In this document: positions 7,235 to 54,097 of the stretch, piece after piece | Position numbering within the stretch: the stretch's first letter is position 1 | Layout: the number at the start of each line of letters is the position of its first letter | Origin: a virus | Taxonomy: Duplodnaviria; Caudoviricetes | Virus record (IMG/VR): IMGVR_UViG_3300046003_005296 | Coordinates: 1-54,097 of that record | DNA length: 54,097 nt | Direction: 5' to 3' (one strand) | Made by a program: the position numbers and the translations under genes | Notes under the pieces: model-generated | Databases searched by the model: none | What the model was told of the DNA's origin: nothing | The model's input: only the letters and a program-made list of their open reading frames with translations

Positions 7235-8161
7235 ATGTTTGGACAACAAGAAAATACACTTTGGGTTGAGTCCTTCCGCCCGGATACATTGGAAGGGTAT
7301 ATTGGCAATGAACACATCATTGAAAAAGTTAAAATTTTTATCGAAAATGGTGATGTGCCGCACTTATTATTTTATGGGTCAGCAGGAACTGGTAAGACTA
7401 CATTGGCCAAGATTATTGCAAATAGCGTCGATGCTGATTTAATGTATATCAATGCATCAGATGAAAACTCAGTAGACGCAGTTCGTGATAAAATTAAGCG
7501 TTATGCATCAACAGTAGGATTTCGTAGATGGAAAATCATTATTTTAGATGAGGCAGATTATCTTACACCTAATGCTCAAGCAGCATTACGTAATTTAATG
7601 GAAACTTATAGCAAAACAACACGTTTTATTTTAACATGTAACTATGTTGAAAAGATCATTGATCCAATTCAATCGCGTTGTCAGACATTTGCAATTACAC
7701 CTCCAGGTAAACCAGATGTAGCAAAACGATTGGTTGCCGTTTTAAATGAAAAAGGTGTTGAATATGATATTAAAGATGTTGCTGCAATTATCAATGCATC
7801 ATATCCAGATATTCGTCGAGCACTTAATGCAGCACAAGCATCAGTTGTTAATGGAAAATTGCAATTAGATAAAGCAAGCGCTATTCAAGCAAATTATATG
7901 ACTGAAATTTTGGAAGTATTAAAAAATGCTAAAGACAAAAAAGCATCTTTCAATAAGATCCGTCAAATTATTGCAGATAGTAAAGTAAAAGATTTCACAC
8001 CATTATATACATTTCTTTATGACAGTTTGGATGAGTTTGCAACAGGTCATGTTGCACCATGCATTTTAATTATTGCAGAATCGCAATTCAAAGATGCATC
8101 GGTTGTAGATAAAGAAATTAATATTATGGCAATGTTTGTTAATTTATTAGGAGAACTATGA
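7235..8161 (+). CDS. Clamp loader AAA+ subunit (gp44/RFC-like)
   Basis: LWVESFRP, Walker A GSAGTGKT, INASDE, Walker B ILDEAD, SRC motif. Confidence 0.95.
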   Translation: MFGQQENTLWVESFRPDTLEGYIGNEHIIEKVKIFIENGDVPHLLFYGSAGTGKTTLAKIIANSVDADLMYINASDENSVDAVRDKIKRYASTVGFRRWKIIILDEADYLTPNAQAALRNLMETYSKTTRFILTCNYVEKIIDPIQSRCQTFAITPPGKPDVAKRLVAVLNEKGVEYDIKDVAAIINASYPDIRRALNAAQASVVNGKLQLDKASAIQANYMTEILEVLKNAKDKKASFNKIRQIIADSKVKDFTPLYTFLYDSLDEFATGHVAPCILIIAESQFKDASVVDKEINIMAMFVNLLGEL

Positions 8162-50510: not shown

Positions 50511-51587
50511 ATGAAATGGATAGTCGTTATACTGCCAATATTGGTTAATTTTACTGCGTTTGCACAAAGTACGTTGTGCTCTAGTTACCCTACCACTTTT
50601 TGCTGCGAATATGTTTCAAGTGTAACTATTAATGGACAAACTTATGCTGGTAGTACTGGATATGCTGCATCATCAGGTGGTACTGGCCCAAATGGTTATT
50701 ATAATTATACTAATTCAACACCTGTTCCGACAATTAATGCTGGCCAGAATATTTCTATTTCATACACTGCACAAACAAATGGCAATTATATGGAGTATTT
50801 TAAACTTTGGGTTGACTTTAATGGCAACGGAGTCTTAAGTGACCCAGGCGAACAAGTTTATGCTTATAATGTTGCTTGGACTGGAACTAAAACAGTAACA
50901 TCGACATTTCAAGTTCCTACTACAGTATATAATGGACAAGTTTATATGCGATTCATGATGGTGTATGCAAATGTGCCTGCTTTATGCGGTAGTTATGCAT
51001 ATGGTAATACGTTTGATTTTAAAACAACTATTACCGGTGCAGTTGACCCATATAATCATTCTGGCGTTGTTTATGGGTCTGAAGGAACTGGAATAGCTAA
51101 TGTTCCAATTAAACTTTATAAAAAATTAACTTCAGAAACATCATATTCATTGCATGGTACGTACACAACAAATGCATCCGGGCAATATTCAATAACTACA
51201 AATTTAAATGCAAATTTATATAATTTTCAACTAGTTGTAGATGCATTAACAGTTAATAATCCTGCAATTGCAGATGCATTATATTTCAATCAAAAAGTTC
51301 TATCAAATAATTTTATATCAAAAGATTATTATCGTATGAATACAAATGGAGATCTCCGTTTAACTATTACAGATGTATATTGGATTTATAAAAAAATATT
51401 AGGAAGTGCGTGGTTAGGTAGTACTCCTATCTACCGTTTATTCACACAAACACAATGGAATGTTATTAATACATCTACTAGCAATATGACAGGAACGTAT
51501 CCCGGCGTTCAAAGTTTAACCATAACAAATCCAACAAACAGCGGGACGACAAACATTTATTTTATAAGGACAGGCTATGCAAATTAA
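50511..51587 (+). CDS. Secreted GEVED-like protein with a dockerin-like repeat
   Basis: Signal peptide; WVDFNGNG..D.GE, MRF, YGNTFDF; NTNGDLRLTITDV. Confidence 0.7.
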   Translation: MKWIVVILPILVNFTAFAQSTLCSSYPTTFCCEYVSSVTINGQTYAGSTGYAASSGGTGPNGYYNYTNSTPVPTINAGQNISISYTAQTNGNYMEYFKLWVDFNGNGVLSDPGEQVYAYNVAWTGTKTVTSTFQVPTTVYNGQVYMRFMMVYANVPALCGSYAYGNTFDFKTTITGAVDPYNHSGVVYGSEGTGIANVPIKLYKKLTSETSYSLHGTYTTNASGQYSITTNLNANLYNFQLVVDALTVNNPAIADALYFNQKVLSNNFISKDYYRMNTNGDLRLTITDVYWIYKKILGSAWLGSTPIYRLFTQTQWNVINTSTSNMTGTYPGVQSLTITNPTNSGTTNIYFIRTGYAN

Positions 51588-52161
51588 ACTATTAATTATT
51601 CTTTTATTCCCGTTTGCTTTTTTAGCACAACCAAATCTTACTATCGATAAGAAGTATTACAAAGTAACTTACTCACAAAAACTTAAACAACCTTTAACAG
51701 TTGATTATGGCATAAGAACTAGAGAATGCACTGCAACGCGCTCAGGAATGGAATTTTATGCTGAGAAAGGTGTAATTACTAGTAGCAATGTAGATTATGC
51801 AAACAATGAATGGGATAAAGGACATATGGCTCCAGCAGCAGACTTTTGCTATAGCAGAGATGCAATGCTATCAACCTTTTCATATGCTAATAGTGCTTTA
51901 CAACATTACAAACTCAATCGAGGAGTGTGGAAAGAATTAGAAGCAGCAGAAAGAGTTTGGGCTACAAAAGATTCTATCATAGTTCATATTGATGTGATAT
52001 TTGATGCTAATCCAGCAAAGACTCCAGGAGGCGCATCAATACCAAAAGCATTCCGCAAGACAATTACATTTTATTCAACGGGCAAGAAGTTGGTATATGA
52101 ATTTCCAAATGTACCTCCAACGCAACCATTACCTAAGTATTTAATTAAAGGCAAACTATGA
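51577..52161 (+). CDS. Secreted DNA/RNA non-specific endonuclease (NucA/EndoG family)
   Basis: Signal peptide; DKGHMAPAAD, TF.YAN, LNRGVWKELE, IPKAF.K. Confidence 0.9.
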   Translation: MQIKLLIILLFPFAFLAQPNLTIDKKYYKVTYSQKLKQPLTVDYGIRTRECTATRSGMEFYAEKGVITSSNVDYANNEWDKGHMAPAADFCYSRDAMLSTFSYANSALQHYKLNRGVWKELEAAERVWATKDSIIVHIDVIFDANPAKTPGGASIPKAFRKTITFYSTGKKLVYEFPNVPPTQPLPKYLIKGKL

Positions 52162-52601
52162 GATGGTTATTAACGGCACTATTGTTTTCTTCATTGAGCT
52201 ATGCACAATGTGTTACAGTAGATACAGTTTATTCAACTGCTAAGTTAAGAGAGTTAGGAAATCGAGATATTCGGTTTGGAGTAAAACAAATTGCAGAAGA
52301 AGAATTATCAGATCGATATTGTATTGCCGATGATGGCGATGCTGTACGAGTTGAAGTATTTTATTTTGGAATACCTAAGTATACAATACGTATTGTAGGA
52401 GTTGAAAGAACCAATCAAGTAACGCAAGTAGGAGTACGTTTGTATTATAAAGGCAAATGTTATGAAGGCATCGGCGAATCTGATACAGAGGTAAGGGCTG
52501 TTATGATTGAATTAGTAGATAATAAAGTTCCATTTGATAAGATGACAGTATCATCTGCACTAAAGAAAGCTATCCATGAAGCTGTTAGCAATATGCCTTA
52601 G
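52158..52601 (+). CDS. Exported hypothetical protein, distantly similar to the CsgG-like gene
   Basis: Signal peptide; QVTQVGVRL, GIGES and F....VSSALKKA echo QTTRLGLQV, GLGEA and FNQSTIGISTKKA of 48280..49008. Confidence 0.6.
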   Translation: MRWLLTALLFSSLSYAQCVTVDTVYSTAKLRELGNRDIRFGVKQIAEEELSDRYCIADDGDAVRVEVFYFGIPKYTIRIVGVERTNQVTQVGVRLYYKGKCYEGIGESDTEVRAVMIELVDNKVPFDKMTVSSALKKAIHEAVSNMP

Positions 52602-53025
52602 TTTCATTCCATTCATTGCATTTAGTCAAATACGTATTGATGATGTAGGAGATGGTTGGAAAACACAAGTAGAACAAGCATTGCAACTTATCAAGAACGT
52701 TGATAGCAACAAGTATAAAGTTGTTATAGAGTATTGTGATCATATATCATACGCATTAATACCATATTCGACTACAGAAGCAGGACACGTCATATTGTTA
52801 TCAACCGCAGAAATGCGTCGAGGTAATGTGTATGATATTGCTACGGCAATAGTGCATGAGTCATTGCATTTGTATTTTCAAAAGCATCCTATAGGATTAG
52901 ATCCAAATGATGAAGAAGCATTATGTTATGCTTATGAAATAGAATTTCTCAAACAAATACCAGGAGTTGATCCATGGCTCATTGAGCATGCAATGAAATA
53001 TTATCTATACTTTTCTGAAAAATAG
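52576..53025 (+). CDS. Secreted HExxH metallopeptidase-like protein
   Basis: Signal peptide; IVHESLH and downstream EEALCY. Confidence 0.65.
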   Translation: MKLLAICLSFIPFIAFSQIRIDDVGDGWKTQVEQALQLIKNVDSNKYKVVIEYCDHISYALIPYSTTEAGHVILLSTAEMRRGNVYDIATAIVHESLHLYFQKHPIGLDPNDEEALCYAYEIEFLKQIPGVDPWLIEHAMKYYLYFSEK

Positions 53026-53071: not shown

Positions 53072-53239
53072 ATGGAATTAAATAAGATTAGCGAAGGTTT
53101 ATTTGAATTAGTAGATTCAGCGACTGGCACAGTTATTACAAGAGGTTCATGGGATCATTGTTTTGATTGGATGGCTGAATTAGATCGAGAAAATGAAAAT
53201 GCATCATATGCTGCATTTTTATCAGTATCAGGCATATGA
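53072..53239 (+). CDS. 55-aa hypothetical protein (absent from the ORF track)
   Basis: MELNKISEGLFELVDSATG...FLSVSGI*; leader AAAATAAAGAG as at 38268 and 39520. Confidence 0.6.
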   Translation: MELNKISEGLFELVDSATGTVITRGSWDHCFDWMAELDRENENASYAAFLSVSGI

Positions 53240-53244
53240 TATAT

Positions 53245-53328
53245 GCTTGGGTGGTGGAATAGGTAGACACGCCGGACTTAAAATCCTGTGGGCATTTGCC
53301 CGTGCGGGTTCGATTCCCGCCCCAAGTA
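53245..53328 (+). tRNA. tRNA-Leu (TAA)
   Basis: Acceptor GCTTGGG/CCCAAGT, anticodon loop CTTAAAA, long variable arm GGGCATTTGCCC, T arm GCGGG-TTCGATT-CCCGC; CCA not encoded. Confidence 0.93.
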
Positions 53329-53504
53329 CACCCTGTCAAGGTAGTGACACGTTTCGGTTCATCACCGAATAGTATGTCCAATATGATGAGAAGTAGGCTG
53401 ATTACCTACATGGGACTTCTGATAGGGAAACGCTCTATCCGGTTTGACTAACCGCGGGGAATATCAAAGGGATGCAAAGAACAACGTGCTCTCGTAGTCA
53501 TTAT
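53329..53504 (+). ncRNA. Structured non-coding segment between the tRNAs
   Basis: No credible ORF; five consecutive hairpins (53334-49, 53353-69, 53393-409, 53421-39, 53440-54). Confidence 0.55.
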
Positions 53505-53578
53505 GGTCTTTTAGCTCAGTAGGTTAGAGCAACTGACTCATAATCAGTAGGTGCTAGGTTCGAGCCCTAGAAGGACCA
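53505..53578 (+). tRNA. tRNA with CAT anticodon (probably Ile2/lysidine type, otherwise Met)
   Basis: Acceptor GGTCTTT/AAGGACC, D arm GCTC/GAGC, ACTGA-CTCATAA-TCAGT, T arm CTAGG-TTCGAGC-CCTAG; lacks initiator features. Confidence 0.9.
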
Positions 53579-53585
53579 CAAAAAA

Positions 53586-54066
53586 ACGCTAATGCTCTGA
53601 TTAGGCATTGAAGAGGATACTAGTCACTCCAGGCAGGTTAAGCGTGTCCTGCAACATTGAAGAAGACTGGCTCATATGATAACTTAACATTGTCAGAGGG
53701 AGTACGGATGGTTAAGCATCGTGGTACCGGGTGAACTGCTGGTAGAGTTGAGTTCAAAATACAAGAAGGCAGGTGGGAGCTTGTATTATTTATGATATTG
53801 ATATTTATGAATACCCCACCGTTACTTGTTAACGGAACCCCATAGCAATACTGTTGCTACGGAATAACCGCCCTGCGTTGAGATAAACGTAGGCCTAAGA
53901 ACCATCGGGCATACCGTAAGATCTGCTCACTCCGATGGTCGCTTTTGTTATTGGGAAGTGGAACTTGATTTTTTGGTGCAAGACGTTGCCTCACTGAACA
54001 ACCCTATAACCAATTAACGCACCCAGGTAAGCCTGTCTGATCAACAGAAACTGCCTGGGTTTTTTA
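53586..54066 (+). ncRNA. Large structured ncRNA candidate (GOLLD/ROOL-like setting)
   Basis: About 480 nt with no ORF, GC above the window background, at least 10 helices, ends in a hairpin plus T run. Confidence 0.6.
54021..54065 (+). terminator. Terminal hairpin / terminator
   Basis: ACCCAGGTA (54021-29) pairs with TGCCTGGGT (54052-60), inner CTGT/ACAG stem, then TTTTT. Confidence 0.7.
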
Positions 54067-54097
54067 CTGTACATTATTTATATAAAAGGTTTGTTAT

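What the first reader, a model, noticed from the sequence alone, without database searches (positions are those of the whole stretch)
53329..54066. About 740 nt of ornate non-coding RNA with a tRNA embedded in or next to it
Seen: no credible ORF, raised GC and dense helices. The 5' block has TGTCA/TGACA, TTCGGT/ACCGAA, GTAGG/CCTAC, GATAG/CTATC and CGGTT/AACCG, possibly closed by CCCT 53331/AGGG 53468. The 3' block has AATGC/GCATT, ACTCC 53626/GGAGT 53699 enclosing GCAGG/CCTGC, AATACAAG 53758/CTTGTATT 53780, CCGTTA/TAACGG, TAGCAA/TTGCTA, AATAAC 53863/GTTATT 53947 enclosing CCTGCGTT/AACGTAGG and ACCATCGG/CCGATGGT, then a terminal hairpin. Loop GGTGGG 53772 can pair with CCCACC 53815 (pseudoknot). 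Known: GOLLD and ROOL are large ornate RNAs of unknown function found near phage tRNA genes. Inference: a member of such a class or a new one; the two blocks may be one RNA interrupted by the CAT tRNA or two RNAs.
Basis: partly seen in the sequence, partly recalled or inferred. Interest (0 to 1): 0.8.

Follow-up and report, generated by a model that had tools for sequence, protein, structure and literature searches.

The report
Phage RNAs mimicking a defence antitoxin
The stretch is not one giant RNA but a phage tRNA operon carrying two separate conserved folded RNAs, one of which displays the same hairpin loop that sits in front of a bacterial suicide-toxin gene and so may disarm that defence.

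Summary
The non-coding, GC-raised stretch is real, but it is not one 740-nt RNA and matches no Rfam family, GOLLD and ROOL included. It is the end of a lake-phage tRNA operon with separable modules.

1. Block 1 (53349-53500) is a ~150-nt pseudoknotted RNA. It has 38 distinct homologues, 94.5% of cells paired, 11 pairs with changes on both sides, and exact or near-exact copies in RNA-library contigs of three studies.
2. tRNA-Met follows.
3. Modules X and Y occur only in near relatives, and there X and Y can lie apart with tRNAs between them.
4. A ~250-nt RNA (53814-54065) has six covarying helices and ends in a T run.

The central hairpin of that last RNA carries an 18-nt loop (53909-53926) found in at least 119 viral and 120 mostly Bacteroidota contigs. 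In bacteria 88 of 122 copies sit directly upstream of an Abi_2/AbiD-F gene. In viral contigs 1 of 120 does.

AbiF-family toxins are neutralised by their upstream RNA. My best reading (about 0.5) is that the phage hairpin is an orphan antitoxin mimic, like pseudo-ToxI. Binding is untested, and the function of block 1 is unknown.

The parts
53245..53329 (+). tRNA-Leu (anticodon UAA), first gene of the tRNA/ncRNA cluster
   Evidence: ARAGORN; Rfam tRNA 55.9 bits
53335..53348 (+). Short spacer that resembles the start of an aberrant tRNA-like gene seen at this place in L332. It is not part of the conserved RNA.
   Evidence: Comparison of the five sequences printed (by eye)
53349..53500 (+). Block 1, a ~150-nt conserved pseudoknotted RNA. 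Helices: H1 53353-57/53365-69; H2 53376-79/53412-16; H3 53393-97/53405-09; H4 53421-27/53433-39; H5 53440-44/53450-54; H6 53469-76/53487-93. The pseudoknot joins loop UGACU 53445-49 to tail AGUCA 53496-500.
   Evidence: 38 distinct homologues (alignment A4). 94.5% of 1482 cells paired against 33-46% when slid; 11 pairs changed on both sides; 80 such cells against 29.4 in shuffles, 0 of 500 reaching it. RNAalifold finds the same six helices independently. RNA-library contigs with 0 differences in X15 and X16, 1 in X17, and 1-6 in three X18 contigs. Coordinates.
53505..53579 (+). tRNA-Met (anticodon CAU)
   Evidence: ARAGORN; Rfam tRNA 68.9 bits
53582..53660 (+). Module X, two hairpins. Found only in close relatives. 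In L112 it lies before tRNA-Glu at the start of the array.
   Evidence: blastn hits L344 97.5%, L347 96%, L112 86%, and L339 22 nt only; placement in L112
53666..53790 (+). Module Y, hairpins including AATACAAG/CTTGTATT. Found only in close relatives. Absent from one RNA-library contig that joins 53653 directly to 53812.
   Evidence: 7 loci at 88-98% identity; joint in X17 (table 5)
53814..54065 (+). The 3' structured RNA ('class A'). Helices: P0a 53819-24/53830-35; P0b 53843-48/53854-59; P1 53872-79/53886-93; P2 53901-08/53932-39; P3 53947-54/54010-18, with a variable insert whose tip is GCAA-GACG-TTGC at 53978-89; P4 54022-54059; T run 54060-65.
   Evidence: Alignment A1 of 29 sequences; RNAalifold gives 23 pairs, 15 with compensatory changes, in P3, P4 and the top of P2. 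P1 in 28 of 30. P0a and P0b covary. P2. RNA-library contigs cover 53812-53931.
53909..53926 (+). 18-nt loop motif of hairpin P2, identical to the loop of the leader hairpin upstream of Bacteroidota Abi_2/AbiD-F genes
   Evidence: Only copy in the window at up to 3 mismatches, 0.01 expected. At least 119 viral and at least 120 genome contigs hold it. 88 of 122 bacterial sites against 1 of 120 viral sites are followed by an Abi_2 ORF. Pfam Abi_2 E about 1e-55 and PADLOC AbiD.
54022..54065 (+). P4, a long interrupted hairpin plus T run that probably acts as the intrinsic terminator. Its apical loop holds the 6-nt palindrome TGATCA (54038-54043).
   Evidence: Lower and upper stems covary. The loop palindrome changes to TAGCTA, TGGCCA or TGGTCA in other members (by eye). 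The simple terminator scan did not call it.

Best explanation
The stretch is the distal end of a tRNA operon of an uncultured lake phage of about 160 kb with a T4-type polymerase. Besides two tRNAs it encodes two independent, conserved, folded RNAs on the + strand.

(a) The 3' RNA (53814-54065) is a six-helix RNA ending in a terminator-like hairpin. Its central hairpin P2 presents the 18-nt loop GCAUACCGUAAGAUCUGC. In Bacteroidota the same loop, on a stem of different sequence, forms the promoter-proximal leader hairpin directly upstream of Abi_2 (AbiD/AbiF-family HEPN) genes. In the two studied AbiF systems that upstream RNA is the antitoxin of a type III toxin-antitoxin pair, and in C. difficile it works in trans.

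I infer that the phage copy, which has no toxin gene behind it, is an antitoxin mimic. It would be made in quantity with the tRNAs. It would keep the host's AbiF RNase blocked after infection cuts off the host's own antitoxin supply.

P0, P1, P3 and P4 would act as scaffold, stabiliser and terminator. The self-complementary P4 loop could pair two molecules to match the AbiF homodimer.

(b) Block 1 (53349-53500) is a separate pseudoknotted RNA, probably cut out by tRNA-processing enzymes. Its function is unknown.

Shown: the conservation, the structures, the + strand, the link with Abi_2 in bacteria, the orphan state in phages, and presence in RNA libraries. Inferred: antitoxin function of this hairpin class, binding of AbiF by the phage copy, dimerisation, and processing.
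For: Motif spread and context:
- The exact loop occurs in at least 119 viral contigs and at least 120 genome contigs, nearly all Bacteroidota.
- In bacteria 88 of 122 sites have an Abi_2-like ORF on the same strand within 1.3 kb, and 86 of these start less than 150 nt after the motif. In viral contigs the figure is 1 of 120.
- The ORFs are Pfam Abi_2 (E 4e-55) and PADLOC AbiD (E 5e-68). They match the solved PbAbiF, 8VZ6, at E 1.7e-38.
- 53 of 119 bacterial sites have a TAnnTTTG box exactly 26-27 nt before the motif, against 2 of 117 viral sites in the -45..-20 window and a background of 40 of 2400. The bacterial copy therefore heads a transcript, while the phage copy is embedded in a longer one.

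Structure:
- The stem covaries while the loop is fixed. In 72 viral hairpins 76.5% of cells pair against 62.4% in shuffles, with 110 double-change cells against 47.3 and 0 of 500 shuffles reaching it. Slid partners give 27-44%.
- G-U pairs are frequent in all helices, which fixes the + strand.

Literature (passages or abstract read):
- AbiF ncRNA is the antitoxin, and PbAbiF is a homodimer holding two RNAs (PMC12737573; bioRxiv 10.1101/2025.04.15.648962).
- RCd22 neutralises in cis and in trans (abstract).
- Pseudo-ToxI is the precedent for RNA mimicry (PMC3475682, abstract).

A second leader type:
- Relatives of this phage (L082, L083, L108, L112, L145) carry, just upstream of the same RNA, a second hairpin of the type found behind promoter boxes in Bacteroidota defence islands.
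- In L259 that hairpin type lies 62 nt before another Abi_2 gene.

RNA libraries: contigs cover 53812-53931 (X17, depth 50), 53837-53926 (X18) and 53897-53940 (X15).
Against: - No binding or rescue experiment exists for this hairpin class.
- I could not see the sequence of the structurally studied PbAbiFr, because the primary paper is not held. The solved AbiF is only a distant relative of the Abi_2 subfamily that follows this hairpin.
- Rfam's abiF motif RF03085 matches neither the window nor a bacterial leader at E up to 10.
- At least 8 bacterial copies precede type I restriction hsdR genes. For L219, L291, L301 and L317 no Abi_2 lies in the 8 kb held. The hairpin may therefore be a more general leader of defence genes.
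- A hairpin followed by a U run is also simply a terminator.
- The window's P2 has an extra 5-nt bulge (UCACU, 53927-31) that the bacterial copies lack.
- The host of this phage is unknown, and so is whether it carries such an AbiF.
- No deposited phage genome among 50,697 records holds the motif, so no cultured system is at hand.
- Single-sequence fold energies are at chance level.
Confidence: 0.5

Rival explanations
1. The conserved-loop hairpin is a general Bacteroidota RNA signal: a terminator, attenuator, processing site or stability element read by a host factor. Defence-gene leaders and phage operons use it alike. In the phage it merely ends or punctuates the tRNA/ncRNA transcript and has no anti-defence role.
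For: - The hairpin is always followed by a U run.
- It also precedes hsdR genes.
- In viral contigs it stands after tRNAs, after freshwater-1 RNA (L093, L125) and before a phage tmRNA (L200). That is where a terminator or processing signal would be expected.
Against: - An 18-nt invariant loop is not needed for intrinsic termination.
- 88 of 122 bacterial copies go with one gene family.
- Phage copies are single per locus, with 72 hits in 72 sources, rather than being spread behind many operons.
- In the window the RNA goes on for 125 nt after P2 to a second terminator-like hairpin.
Confidence: 0.2
2. The phage RNAs work for the phage's own gene expression, for example as stable small RNAs of the tRNA operon comparable to T4 species 1 and 2 RNAs, as RNA chaperone or processing cofactors, or as regulators of host or phage mRNAs. 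The loop identity with Abi_2 leaders would then reflect capture of a phage element by defence islands, not mimicry.
For: - Block 1 has no bacterial counterpart among the loci seen. It is abundant in RNA libraries, with word depth up to about 985 in X18 against 12.6 for the neighbouring ORF.
- Both RNAs lie in a tRNA operon, as the T4 small RNAs do (recalled; also pointed to by earlier finding e1-5822834).
Against: - This does not explain why the loop is fixed across Prevotella, Flavobacterium, Chitinophaga and Algoriphagus exactly in front of Abi_2 genes.
- There is no sequence similarity to any deposited phage outside the tRNA.
Confidence: 0.15
3. One reading: one large ornate RNA of about 740 nt, GOLLD- or ROOL-like or a new class of that kind, with a tRNA embedded in it.
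For: - The region is contiguous, non-coding and GC-raised, and lies next to tRNAs.
- One RNA-library contig joins module X to the 3' RNA.
Against: - No Rfam match at E up to 10.
- Block 1 and the 3' RNA each occur without the other in many contigs.
- Modules X and Y are separated by three tRNAs in L112.
- Only the last ~175 nt of block 2 is kept in 4 of 50 related phage records, and block 1 in 0 of 50.
Confidence: 0.04
4. A DNA-level element, such as a recombination or packaging site or an assembly-breaking repeat, rather than RNA.
For: Matches lie near contig ends in the window, G025, G027 and G015. The loops contain 4-6-bp palindromes (GATC, AGATCT, TGATCA).
Against: Helices are kept through G-U pairs and compensatory changes that only make sense in + strand RNA. 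The sequences are present in RNA libraries.
Confidence: 0.03

Closest known systems
AbiF/AbiD-family type III toxin-antitoxin systems and their upstream ncRNA (PbAbiF-AbiFr, PDB 8VZ6; C. difficile AbiF-RCd22)
   Same: - The hairpin RNA with a conserved loop lies directly upstream of an Abi_2 gene and is followed by a terminator-like U run.
- The proteins behind it are Abi_2/AbiD and homologous to 8VZ6.
   Different: - The window's copy has no toxin gene and no promoter box next to it. It is embedded in a longer phage RNA.
- The loop sequence is not that of Rfam RF03085.
- Identity with the AbiFr of the solved complex could not be checked.
Pseudo-ToxI of Pectobacterium phage PhiTE (Blower et al. 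2012, PMC3475682; abstract seen)
   Same: A phage-encoded RNA that resembles the host's RNA antitoxin, is not linked to a toxin gene, and is proposed to suppress abortive infection by mimicry.
   Different: - A different toxin family (ToxN rather than HEPN Abi_2).
- Here there is a single hairpin in a scaffold, not tandem 36-nt repeats.
- Function has been shown for PhiTE and not here.
Hairpin of the cos site of lactococcal phage sk1 that inhibits AbiF (Rince 2000; Zilberzwige-Tal 2025, as cited in PMC13064643, passage read)
   Same: A phage-borne hairpin that counteracts an AbiF toxin.
   Different: The review says the sk1 hairpin does not resemble the AbiF ncRNA. The hairpin here shares its whole 18-nt loop with the bacterial leader.
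GOLLD (recalled as RF01998) and ROOL (recalled as RF03087)
   Same: Non-coding RNAs near phage tRNA genes.
   Different: - No covariance-model match at E up to 10.
- The sizes are about 150 and 250 nt rather than 600-800.
- The elements are modular and separable.
Species 1 and 2 small stable RNAs of the phage T4 tRNA gene cluster (recalled; named in earlier finding e1-5822834)
   Same: Stable small RNAs of unknown function encoded among the tRNA genes of a T4-type phage, presumably released by tRNA-processing enzymes.
   Different: No sequence similarity was found to any deposited phage outside the tRNA-Met. Structures were not compared.

Membership tests
GOLLD / ROOL / any Rfam 15 family | Match to the family covariance model | tested here: not met
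   At gathering score only two tRNAs match. At E up to 10 on 53200-54097 only the tRNAs and antisense tRNA look-alikes appear. A block 1 homologue in L334 gives nothing relevant.
Rfam abiF motif (RF03085) | Match to the covariance model | tested here: not met
   No RF03085 hit at E up to 10 in the window or in a bacterial Abi_2 leader, L229 4020-4160.
AbiF-type RNA antitoxin (type III TA) | Lies immediately upstream of, and on the same strand as, an Abi_2/AbiD-F toxin gene | tested here: not met
   Met for bacterial copies (88 of 122). Not met for the window's copy, and met in only 1 of 120 viral copies. The window's copy is therefore filed as a look-alike, not as a member.
AbiF-type RNA antitoxin (type III TA) | Stable hairpin with conserved unpaired nucleotides, followed by a terminator | tested here: met
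   Covarying stem and invariant loop; U run after the stem.
AbiF-type RNA antitoxin (type III TA) | Binds the toxin and neutralises it | not testable with these tools
   The complex predictor takes protein chains only, so no experiment was possible.
Phage antitoxin mimic (pseudo-ToxI kind) | Phage-encoded RNA sharing the recognition determinants of a host antitoxin RNA, without the toxin gene | tested here: met
   The identical 18-nt loop on different stems. Orphan in 119 of 120 viral sites.
Phage antitoxin mimic (pseudo-ToxI kind) | Lets the phage escape the cognate abortive-infection system | not testable with these tools
   Needs plating or toxicity-rescue assays.
Intrinsic (rho-independent) terminator, for P4 | G+C-rich stem directly followed by a T run | tested here: inconclusive
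   The sequence shows a stem of about 13 bp with an internal loop, then six T's (54060-65). The simple scan, which wants an uninterrupted stem and a loop of 3-8, found 0.
tRNA | Cloverleaf with anticodon | tested here: met
   For 53245-53329 and 53505-53579 only. Neither RNA block is a tRNA.

The most novel reading that the evidence does not exclude
Phages of Bacteroidota carry transcribed 'decoy cassettes' inside or next to their tRNA operons.
- Each cassette hairpin copies the recognition loop of the antitoxin RNA of a different Abi_2/AbiF subfamily. Type 1 is in the window. Types 1 and 3 stand in tandem in relatives.
- The hairpins are mounted on a conserved scaffold whose self-complementary terminal loop pairs two molecules, matching the AbiF homodimer.
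- This would be a widespread, purely RNA-based counter-defence against the ancestors of Cas13.
- Block 1 would be a further, so far unnamed, class of pseudoknotted phage RNA with its own target, either a decoy for another defence or a catalytic or ligand-binding RNA.
Probability: 0.3. Interest if true: 0.85.

Novelty: new variant of a known kind. Interest (0 to 1): 0.74.

Why it matters
RNA-based mimicry of an antitoxin has been shown for one phage and one toxin family (ToxIN). AbiF-family toxins are widespread and are thought to be the ancestors of Cas13.

If this reading holds, counter-defence by antitoxin mimicry is common in nature:
- An orphan copy of their leader loop sits in at least 119 uncultured phage contigs, on several different scaffolds.
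- That would give a ready set of natural AbiF inhibitors.
- It would explain one class of the unexplained non-coding RNAs in phage tRNA operons.

Independently, the work defines three conserved RNA motifs absent from Rfam 15:
- the Bacteroidota Abi_2 leader hairpin;
- the ~250-nt phage RNA built around it;
- the ~150-nt pseudoknotted block 1 RNA.

All three have alignments good enough to seed covariance models.

Tried and rejected
- **Rfam membership.** GOLLD, ROOL, RNase P, tmRNA, group I intron, the known ribozymes and the abiF motif gave no match.
- **Thermodynamic stability of the single sequence.** It is at chance level and says nothing either way.
- **Relatives through the neighbouring 149-aa ORF.** None found.
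- **blastn against 50,697 deposited phages.** Only the tRNA-Met matches. The 50-nt hairpin alone gave one chance hit in an endolysin gene.
- **blastn of 53580-53895 against 401 Bacteroidota genomes.** 0 matches. This is a sample, not proof of absence.
- **Block 1 in 50 records of polymerase relatives.** 0 matches.
- **A permutation test of hairpin flanks with free folding.** It separated real from permuted partners only weakly, at 8.0 against about 6.1 bp. I replaced it with the model-based pair count.
- **Structure-aware MAFFT.** Not installed. P1 was therefore analysed hairpin by hairpin, which is fitted to each sequence.
- **Simple terminator scan.** 0 sites.
- **Parts of the window without cover in the RNA-library contigs** (53666-53776, 53962-53998, 54036 onward). 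These are contigs, so a gap means nothing.
- **The primary paper on PbAbiF** (Cell 2025, pmid 39970912). It is not held, and supplements are closed. It may already describe this leader sequence or phage-borne copies.
- **Literature searches for the motif, for AbiFr and for an anti-AbiF RNA.** They found no such description in the held library.
- **Complex prediction.** Not used, because the tool takes no RNA chain.
Full report
**What the window is.** The window is a whole IMG/VR virus record of 54,097 b. It is linear, and CheckV puts it at 17% complete. Nearly all ORFs run on the + strand. They include a T4-type DNA polymerase, a GroEL, thymidylate synthase and several glycosyltransferases. 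175 of 184 candidate stretches in IMG/VR encode a relative of the polymerase. The complete relatives, which have terminal repeats, are 158-169 kb long. DNA and RNA runs that hold the stretch are lake or freshwater metagenomes. The finding lies at the 3' end of the record. The close relative L112 shows that only an ordinary ORF follows, so nothing of the RNA region is cut off.

**Checking the observation.**
- No frame longer than 81 aa overlaps 53245-54097, and those present run through the tRNAs.
- GC rises to 0.43-0.495.
- ARAGORN and Rfam find tRNA-Leu(UAA) at 53245-53329 and tRNA-Met(CAU) at 53505-53579.
- Rfam 15 gives nothing else at gathering score. At E up to 10 it gives only antisense look-alikes of the tRNAs.
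- Folding energies of the two blocks are no better than dinucleotide shuffles, with z of -0.03 and -1.07.

The case therefore had to be made from homologues.

**The stretch is modular.**
- blastn of 53580-54066 against the full records of 50 polymerase relatives hit 5 of them. One of these (G050) gave only two 19-nt matches at E 0.009, probably chance.
- In the other four only the last ~175 nt matched, and each match lay downstream of a different tRNA.
- Block 1 (53330-53504) hit 0 of 50.
- In L112, which is 97-99% identical over the shared parts, the first 78 nt of block 2 (module X) lie before tRNA-Glu at the start of the array. The next 124 nt (module Y) lie after tRNA-Trp, about 640 nt further on. 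Block 1 sits between an aberrant tRNA-like gene and tRNA-Met.
- X and Y occur only in loci that are 86-98% identical. Their helices therefore cannot be tested.
- One RNA-library contig joins 53653 directly to 53812, skipping Y.

One 740-nt RNA is thus excluded.

**The 3' RNA (53814-54065).** That made 120 sites with the window, 107 of them distinct over +/-150 nt.
- A stricter filter gave 32 window-like ('class A') sequences. I aligned 29, leaving out L133, L167 and L190 as duplicates or near-duplicates.
- RNAalifold predicted 23 pairs, 15 of them with compensatory changes. These cover P3 (GTTATTGG with CCAATTAAC), both parts of P4, and the top of P2.
- MAFFT misaligns P1 and the lower P2, so I treated them separately. 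P1 is a hairpin of 7-10 bp in 28 of 30 distinct sequences, with mean dG of -9.8 against -4.3 for shuffles and several stem versions.
- P0a and P0b covary. P0a appears as CCGTTA/TAACGG, CCACTA/TAGTGG, CCAATG/CATTGG and CTATTA/TAATAG.
- In L186, L178, L106 and L183 a TAnnTTTG box precedes the conserved CCAC start (by eye). In those phages the RNA may therefore be its own transcription unit.
- The apical loop of P4 holds a 6-nt palindrome that changes while staying self-complementary: TGATCA, TAGCTA, TGGCCA and TGGTCA (by eye).

**The P2 hairpin.** The 18-nt motif is the loop of a hairpin whose stem differs from contig to contig. A covariance model (R1) finds one copy in the window, at E 8.5e-11 with the next hit at E 0.1. 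It finds one per locus in 72 of 72 viral sources. On that alignment:
- 76.5% of cells pair, against 62.4% in shuffles;
- there are 110 double-change cells against 47.3, with 0 of 500 shuffles reaching either value;
- partners slid by 1-3 columns give 27-44%.

In viral contigs the hairpin stands on at least four different scaffolds. These lie after tRNAs, after freshwater-1 RNA (L093, L125) and before a phage tmRNA (L200).

**The same loop in bacteria.** Nearly all are Bacteroidota, including Prevotella, Bacteroides, Porphyromonas, Tannerella, Flavobacterium, Chitinophaga, Algoriphagus and lake MAGs. I judged four sites (L210, L221, L257, L273) to be chance matches without a hairpin and left them out of alignment A2.
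- The context is stereotyped. 53 of 119 sites have a TAnnTTTG box 26-27 nt before the motif, and 87 of 119 have one within 80 nt. The background is 40 of 2400.
- The hairpin and a U run follow. About 25 nt after the motif an ORF begins with MANK..SI.EQI.LLK.RGM....ISYYRLKGYW.
- 88 of 122 sites have such an ORF downstream, against 1 of 120 viral sites.
- The ORFs are Pfam Abi_2 (E 4e-55) and PADLOC AbiD, and they match the solved AbiF 8VZ6 at E 1.7e-38.
- Of the other 34 sites, at least 8 precede type I restriction hsdR genes. Several carry truncated Abi_2 remnants, and five have too little sequence to judge.

Rfam finds nothing at these leaders.

**What is known about such leaders.** This comes from passages or abstracts I read, not whole papers.
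- AbiD/F proteins are HEPN RNases that work with a short upstream RNA as type III toxin-antitoxin pairs.
- PbAbiF, from a Prevotellaceae bacterium, is a homodimer holding two copies of its RNA, which blocks the active site (PMC12737573; PMC13064643; discussion of bioRxiv 10.1101/2025.04.15.648962).
- The C. difficile RNA RCd22 neutralises in cis and in trans (abstract).
- Phage PhiTE escapes ToxIN with a pseudo-ToxI RNA (PMC3475682).

I could not read the primary PbAbiF paper. I therefore do not know whether its RNA is this hairpin. The Abi_2 subfamily nearest to PbAbiF in my loci (L311, E 4e-49) has a different leader hairpin.

**Best reading.** The phage hairpin is an orphan copy of the recognition loop of an Abi_2 leader RNA. 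It is embedded in a scaffold, made with the tRNAs, and acts as an antitoxin mimic.

A second observation points the same way. Five related phage contigs (L082, L083, L108, L112, L145) carry another hairpin just upstream of the same RNA. It has the outer stem, CCAG bulge and inner ACGCU/AGCGU stem of a hairpin that stands behind promoter boxes in the same bacterial defence islands. I saw seven distinct bacterial copies. In L259 that hairpin lies 62 nt before a second Abi_2 gene (Pfam E 5.6e-55), while in four others the next ORF is an HTH_17 protein. The window lacks this second hairpin, and the sequence around 53800-53814 looks like the deletion scar.

The weak points are listed in the Against line. 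The main ones are that there are no binding data, that the hairpin also precedes hsdR, and that a hairpin plus U run is also just a terminator.

**Block 1 (53349-53500).** A 19-20-nt pattern found 4 viral contigs (one of them L112) and 53 metagenome contigs.
- 8 sites are cut by contig ends, 50 are whole and 40 are distinct. I dropped 2 (L345, L362) as chance matches in unrelated sequence, which left 38.
- My structure has six helices plus a pseudoknot between the H5 loop (UGACU) and the 3' tail (AGUCA).
- It pairs 94.5% of 1482 cells, against 33-46% when slid. It has 11 pairs with changes on both sides, and 80 such cells against 29.4 in shuffles, with 0 of 500 reaching it.
- The pseudoknot itself shows only one-sided changes.
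- RNAalifold run separately finds the same six helices.
- The RNA nearly always starts right after an aberrant tRNA-Leu-like gene and often ends at another. This suggests release by tRNA-processing enzymes (inference).
- Contigs from RNA libraries of four studies cover it. There are 0 differences in X15 (53262-53499) and X16 (53262-53486, running into adapter sequence there) and 1 difference in X17.
- X18 reaches word depths of about 400-985, against 12.6 for the ORF next door. These are contigs, so they show presence in RNA libraries, not ends or levels.
- No Rfam family matches. Its function is open.

**Verdict.** The region holds two real, conserved, structured RNAs that Rfam lacks. The 3' one carries a loop shared with the leaders of a bacterial abortive-infection toxin family. 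I rate antitoxin mimicry at about 0.5. In the held library I found no description of phage-borne copies, but the key primary paper and all supplements were out of reach.

Noticed in passing
L334:1680-1765 and 1926-2039; L112:8875-8962; L090:513-621; many loci: Aberrant tRNA-Leu-like genes (TAGTCAGGTGGCG...CAGGTTCGA.TCCTGTCCTGACTAC) have 25-56 nt where the anticodon loop region should be. Rfam tRNA scores them 23.7-40.5 bits, and ARAGORN does not call them. They flank block 1 in most contigs and may serve as processing signals rather than decoders.
   Followed up: partly
window 53335-53348: The spacer after tRNA-Leu (GTCAAGGTAG...) resembles the first bases of an aberrant tRNA-like gene at the same place in L332. 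It looks like a remnant left by a deletion.
   Followed up: no
window about 53800-53814, compared with L112:9455-9520: Relatives carry a second defence-leader-like hairpin (type 3: GTACCTACC-ACGCT...AGCGT-ACCAGGGTAGGTCTTTT) between a TATTTATG box and the CCCCACC start of the 3' RNA. The window has lost it.
   Followed up: partly
L311:4030-4075; L316:~880-950; L321:~7620-7670: A third leader hairpin type (…GCCTCTC.ACGA.GCACACTT… plus U run) stands before Abi_2 genes of the subfamily nearest to the solved PbAbiF. It sometimes lies in tandem with the type 1 hairpin. Different Abi_2 subfamilies seem to have their own leader loops.
   Followed up: partly
L219, L223, L232, L291, L301, L317 (956-aa ORFs) and L280, L282 (998-aa ORFs): The same hairpin and U run directly precede type I restriction hsdR genes (Pfam HSDR_N, EcoR124_C; PADLOC REase_I). 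In L232 an Abi_2 unit and an hsdR unit, each with its own hairpin, lie side by side.
   Followed up: partly
L093:3995-4056 and L125:3270-3331: Freshwater-1 RNA (RF02979, 82-84 bits) occurs in these viral contigs. In L093 it lies immediately upstream of the type 1 hairpin.
   Followed up: no
L200:5979-6333: A phage-encoded tmRNA (RF00023, 104.7 bits) starts about 27 nt after the type 1 hairpin.
   Followed up: no
window end; G025:894-1068; G027:111318-111450; G015:617-740: The 3' RNA lies within about 0.6-2.5 kb of a contig end in the window and in three relatives. The tRNA/ncRNA cluster seems to break assemblies, or it may lie near the genome end.
   Followed up: no
window 50511-53025: Just upstream of the RNA cluster lie four small genes with signal-peptide-like starts. 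One encodes a GEVED-domain protein and one a DNA/RNA non-specific endonuclease (Pfam E 2e-24).
   Followed up: no
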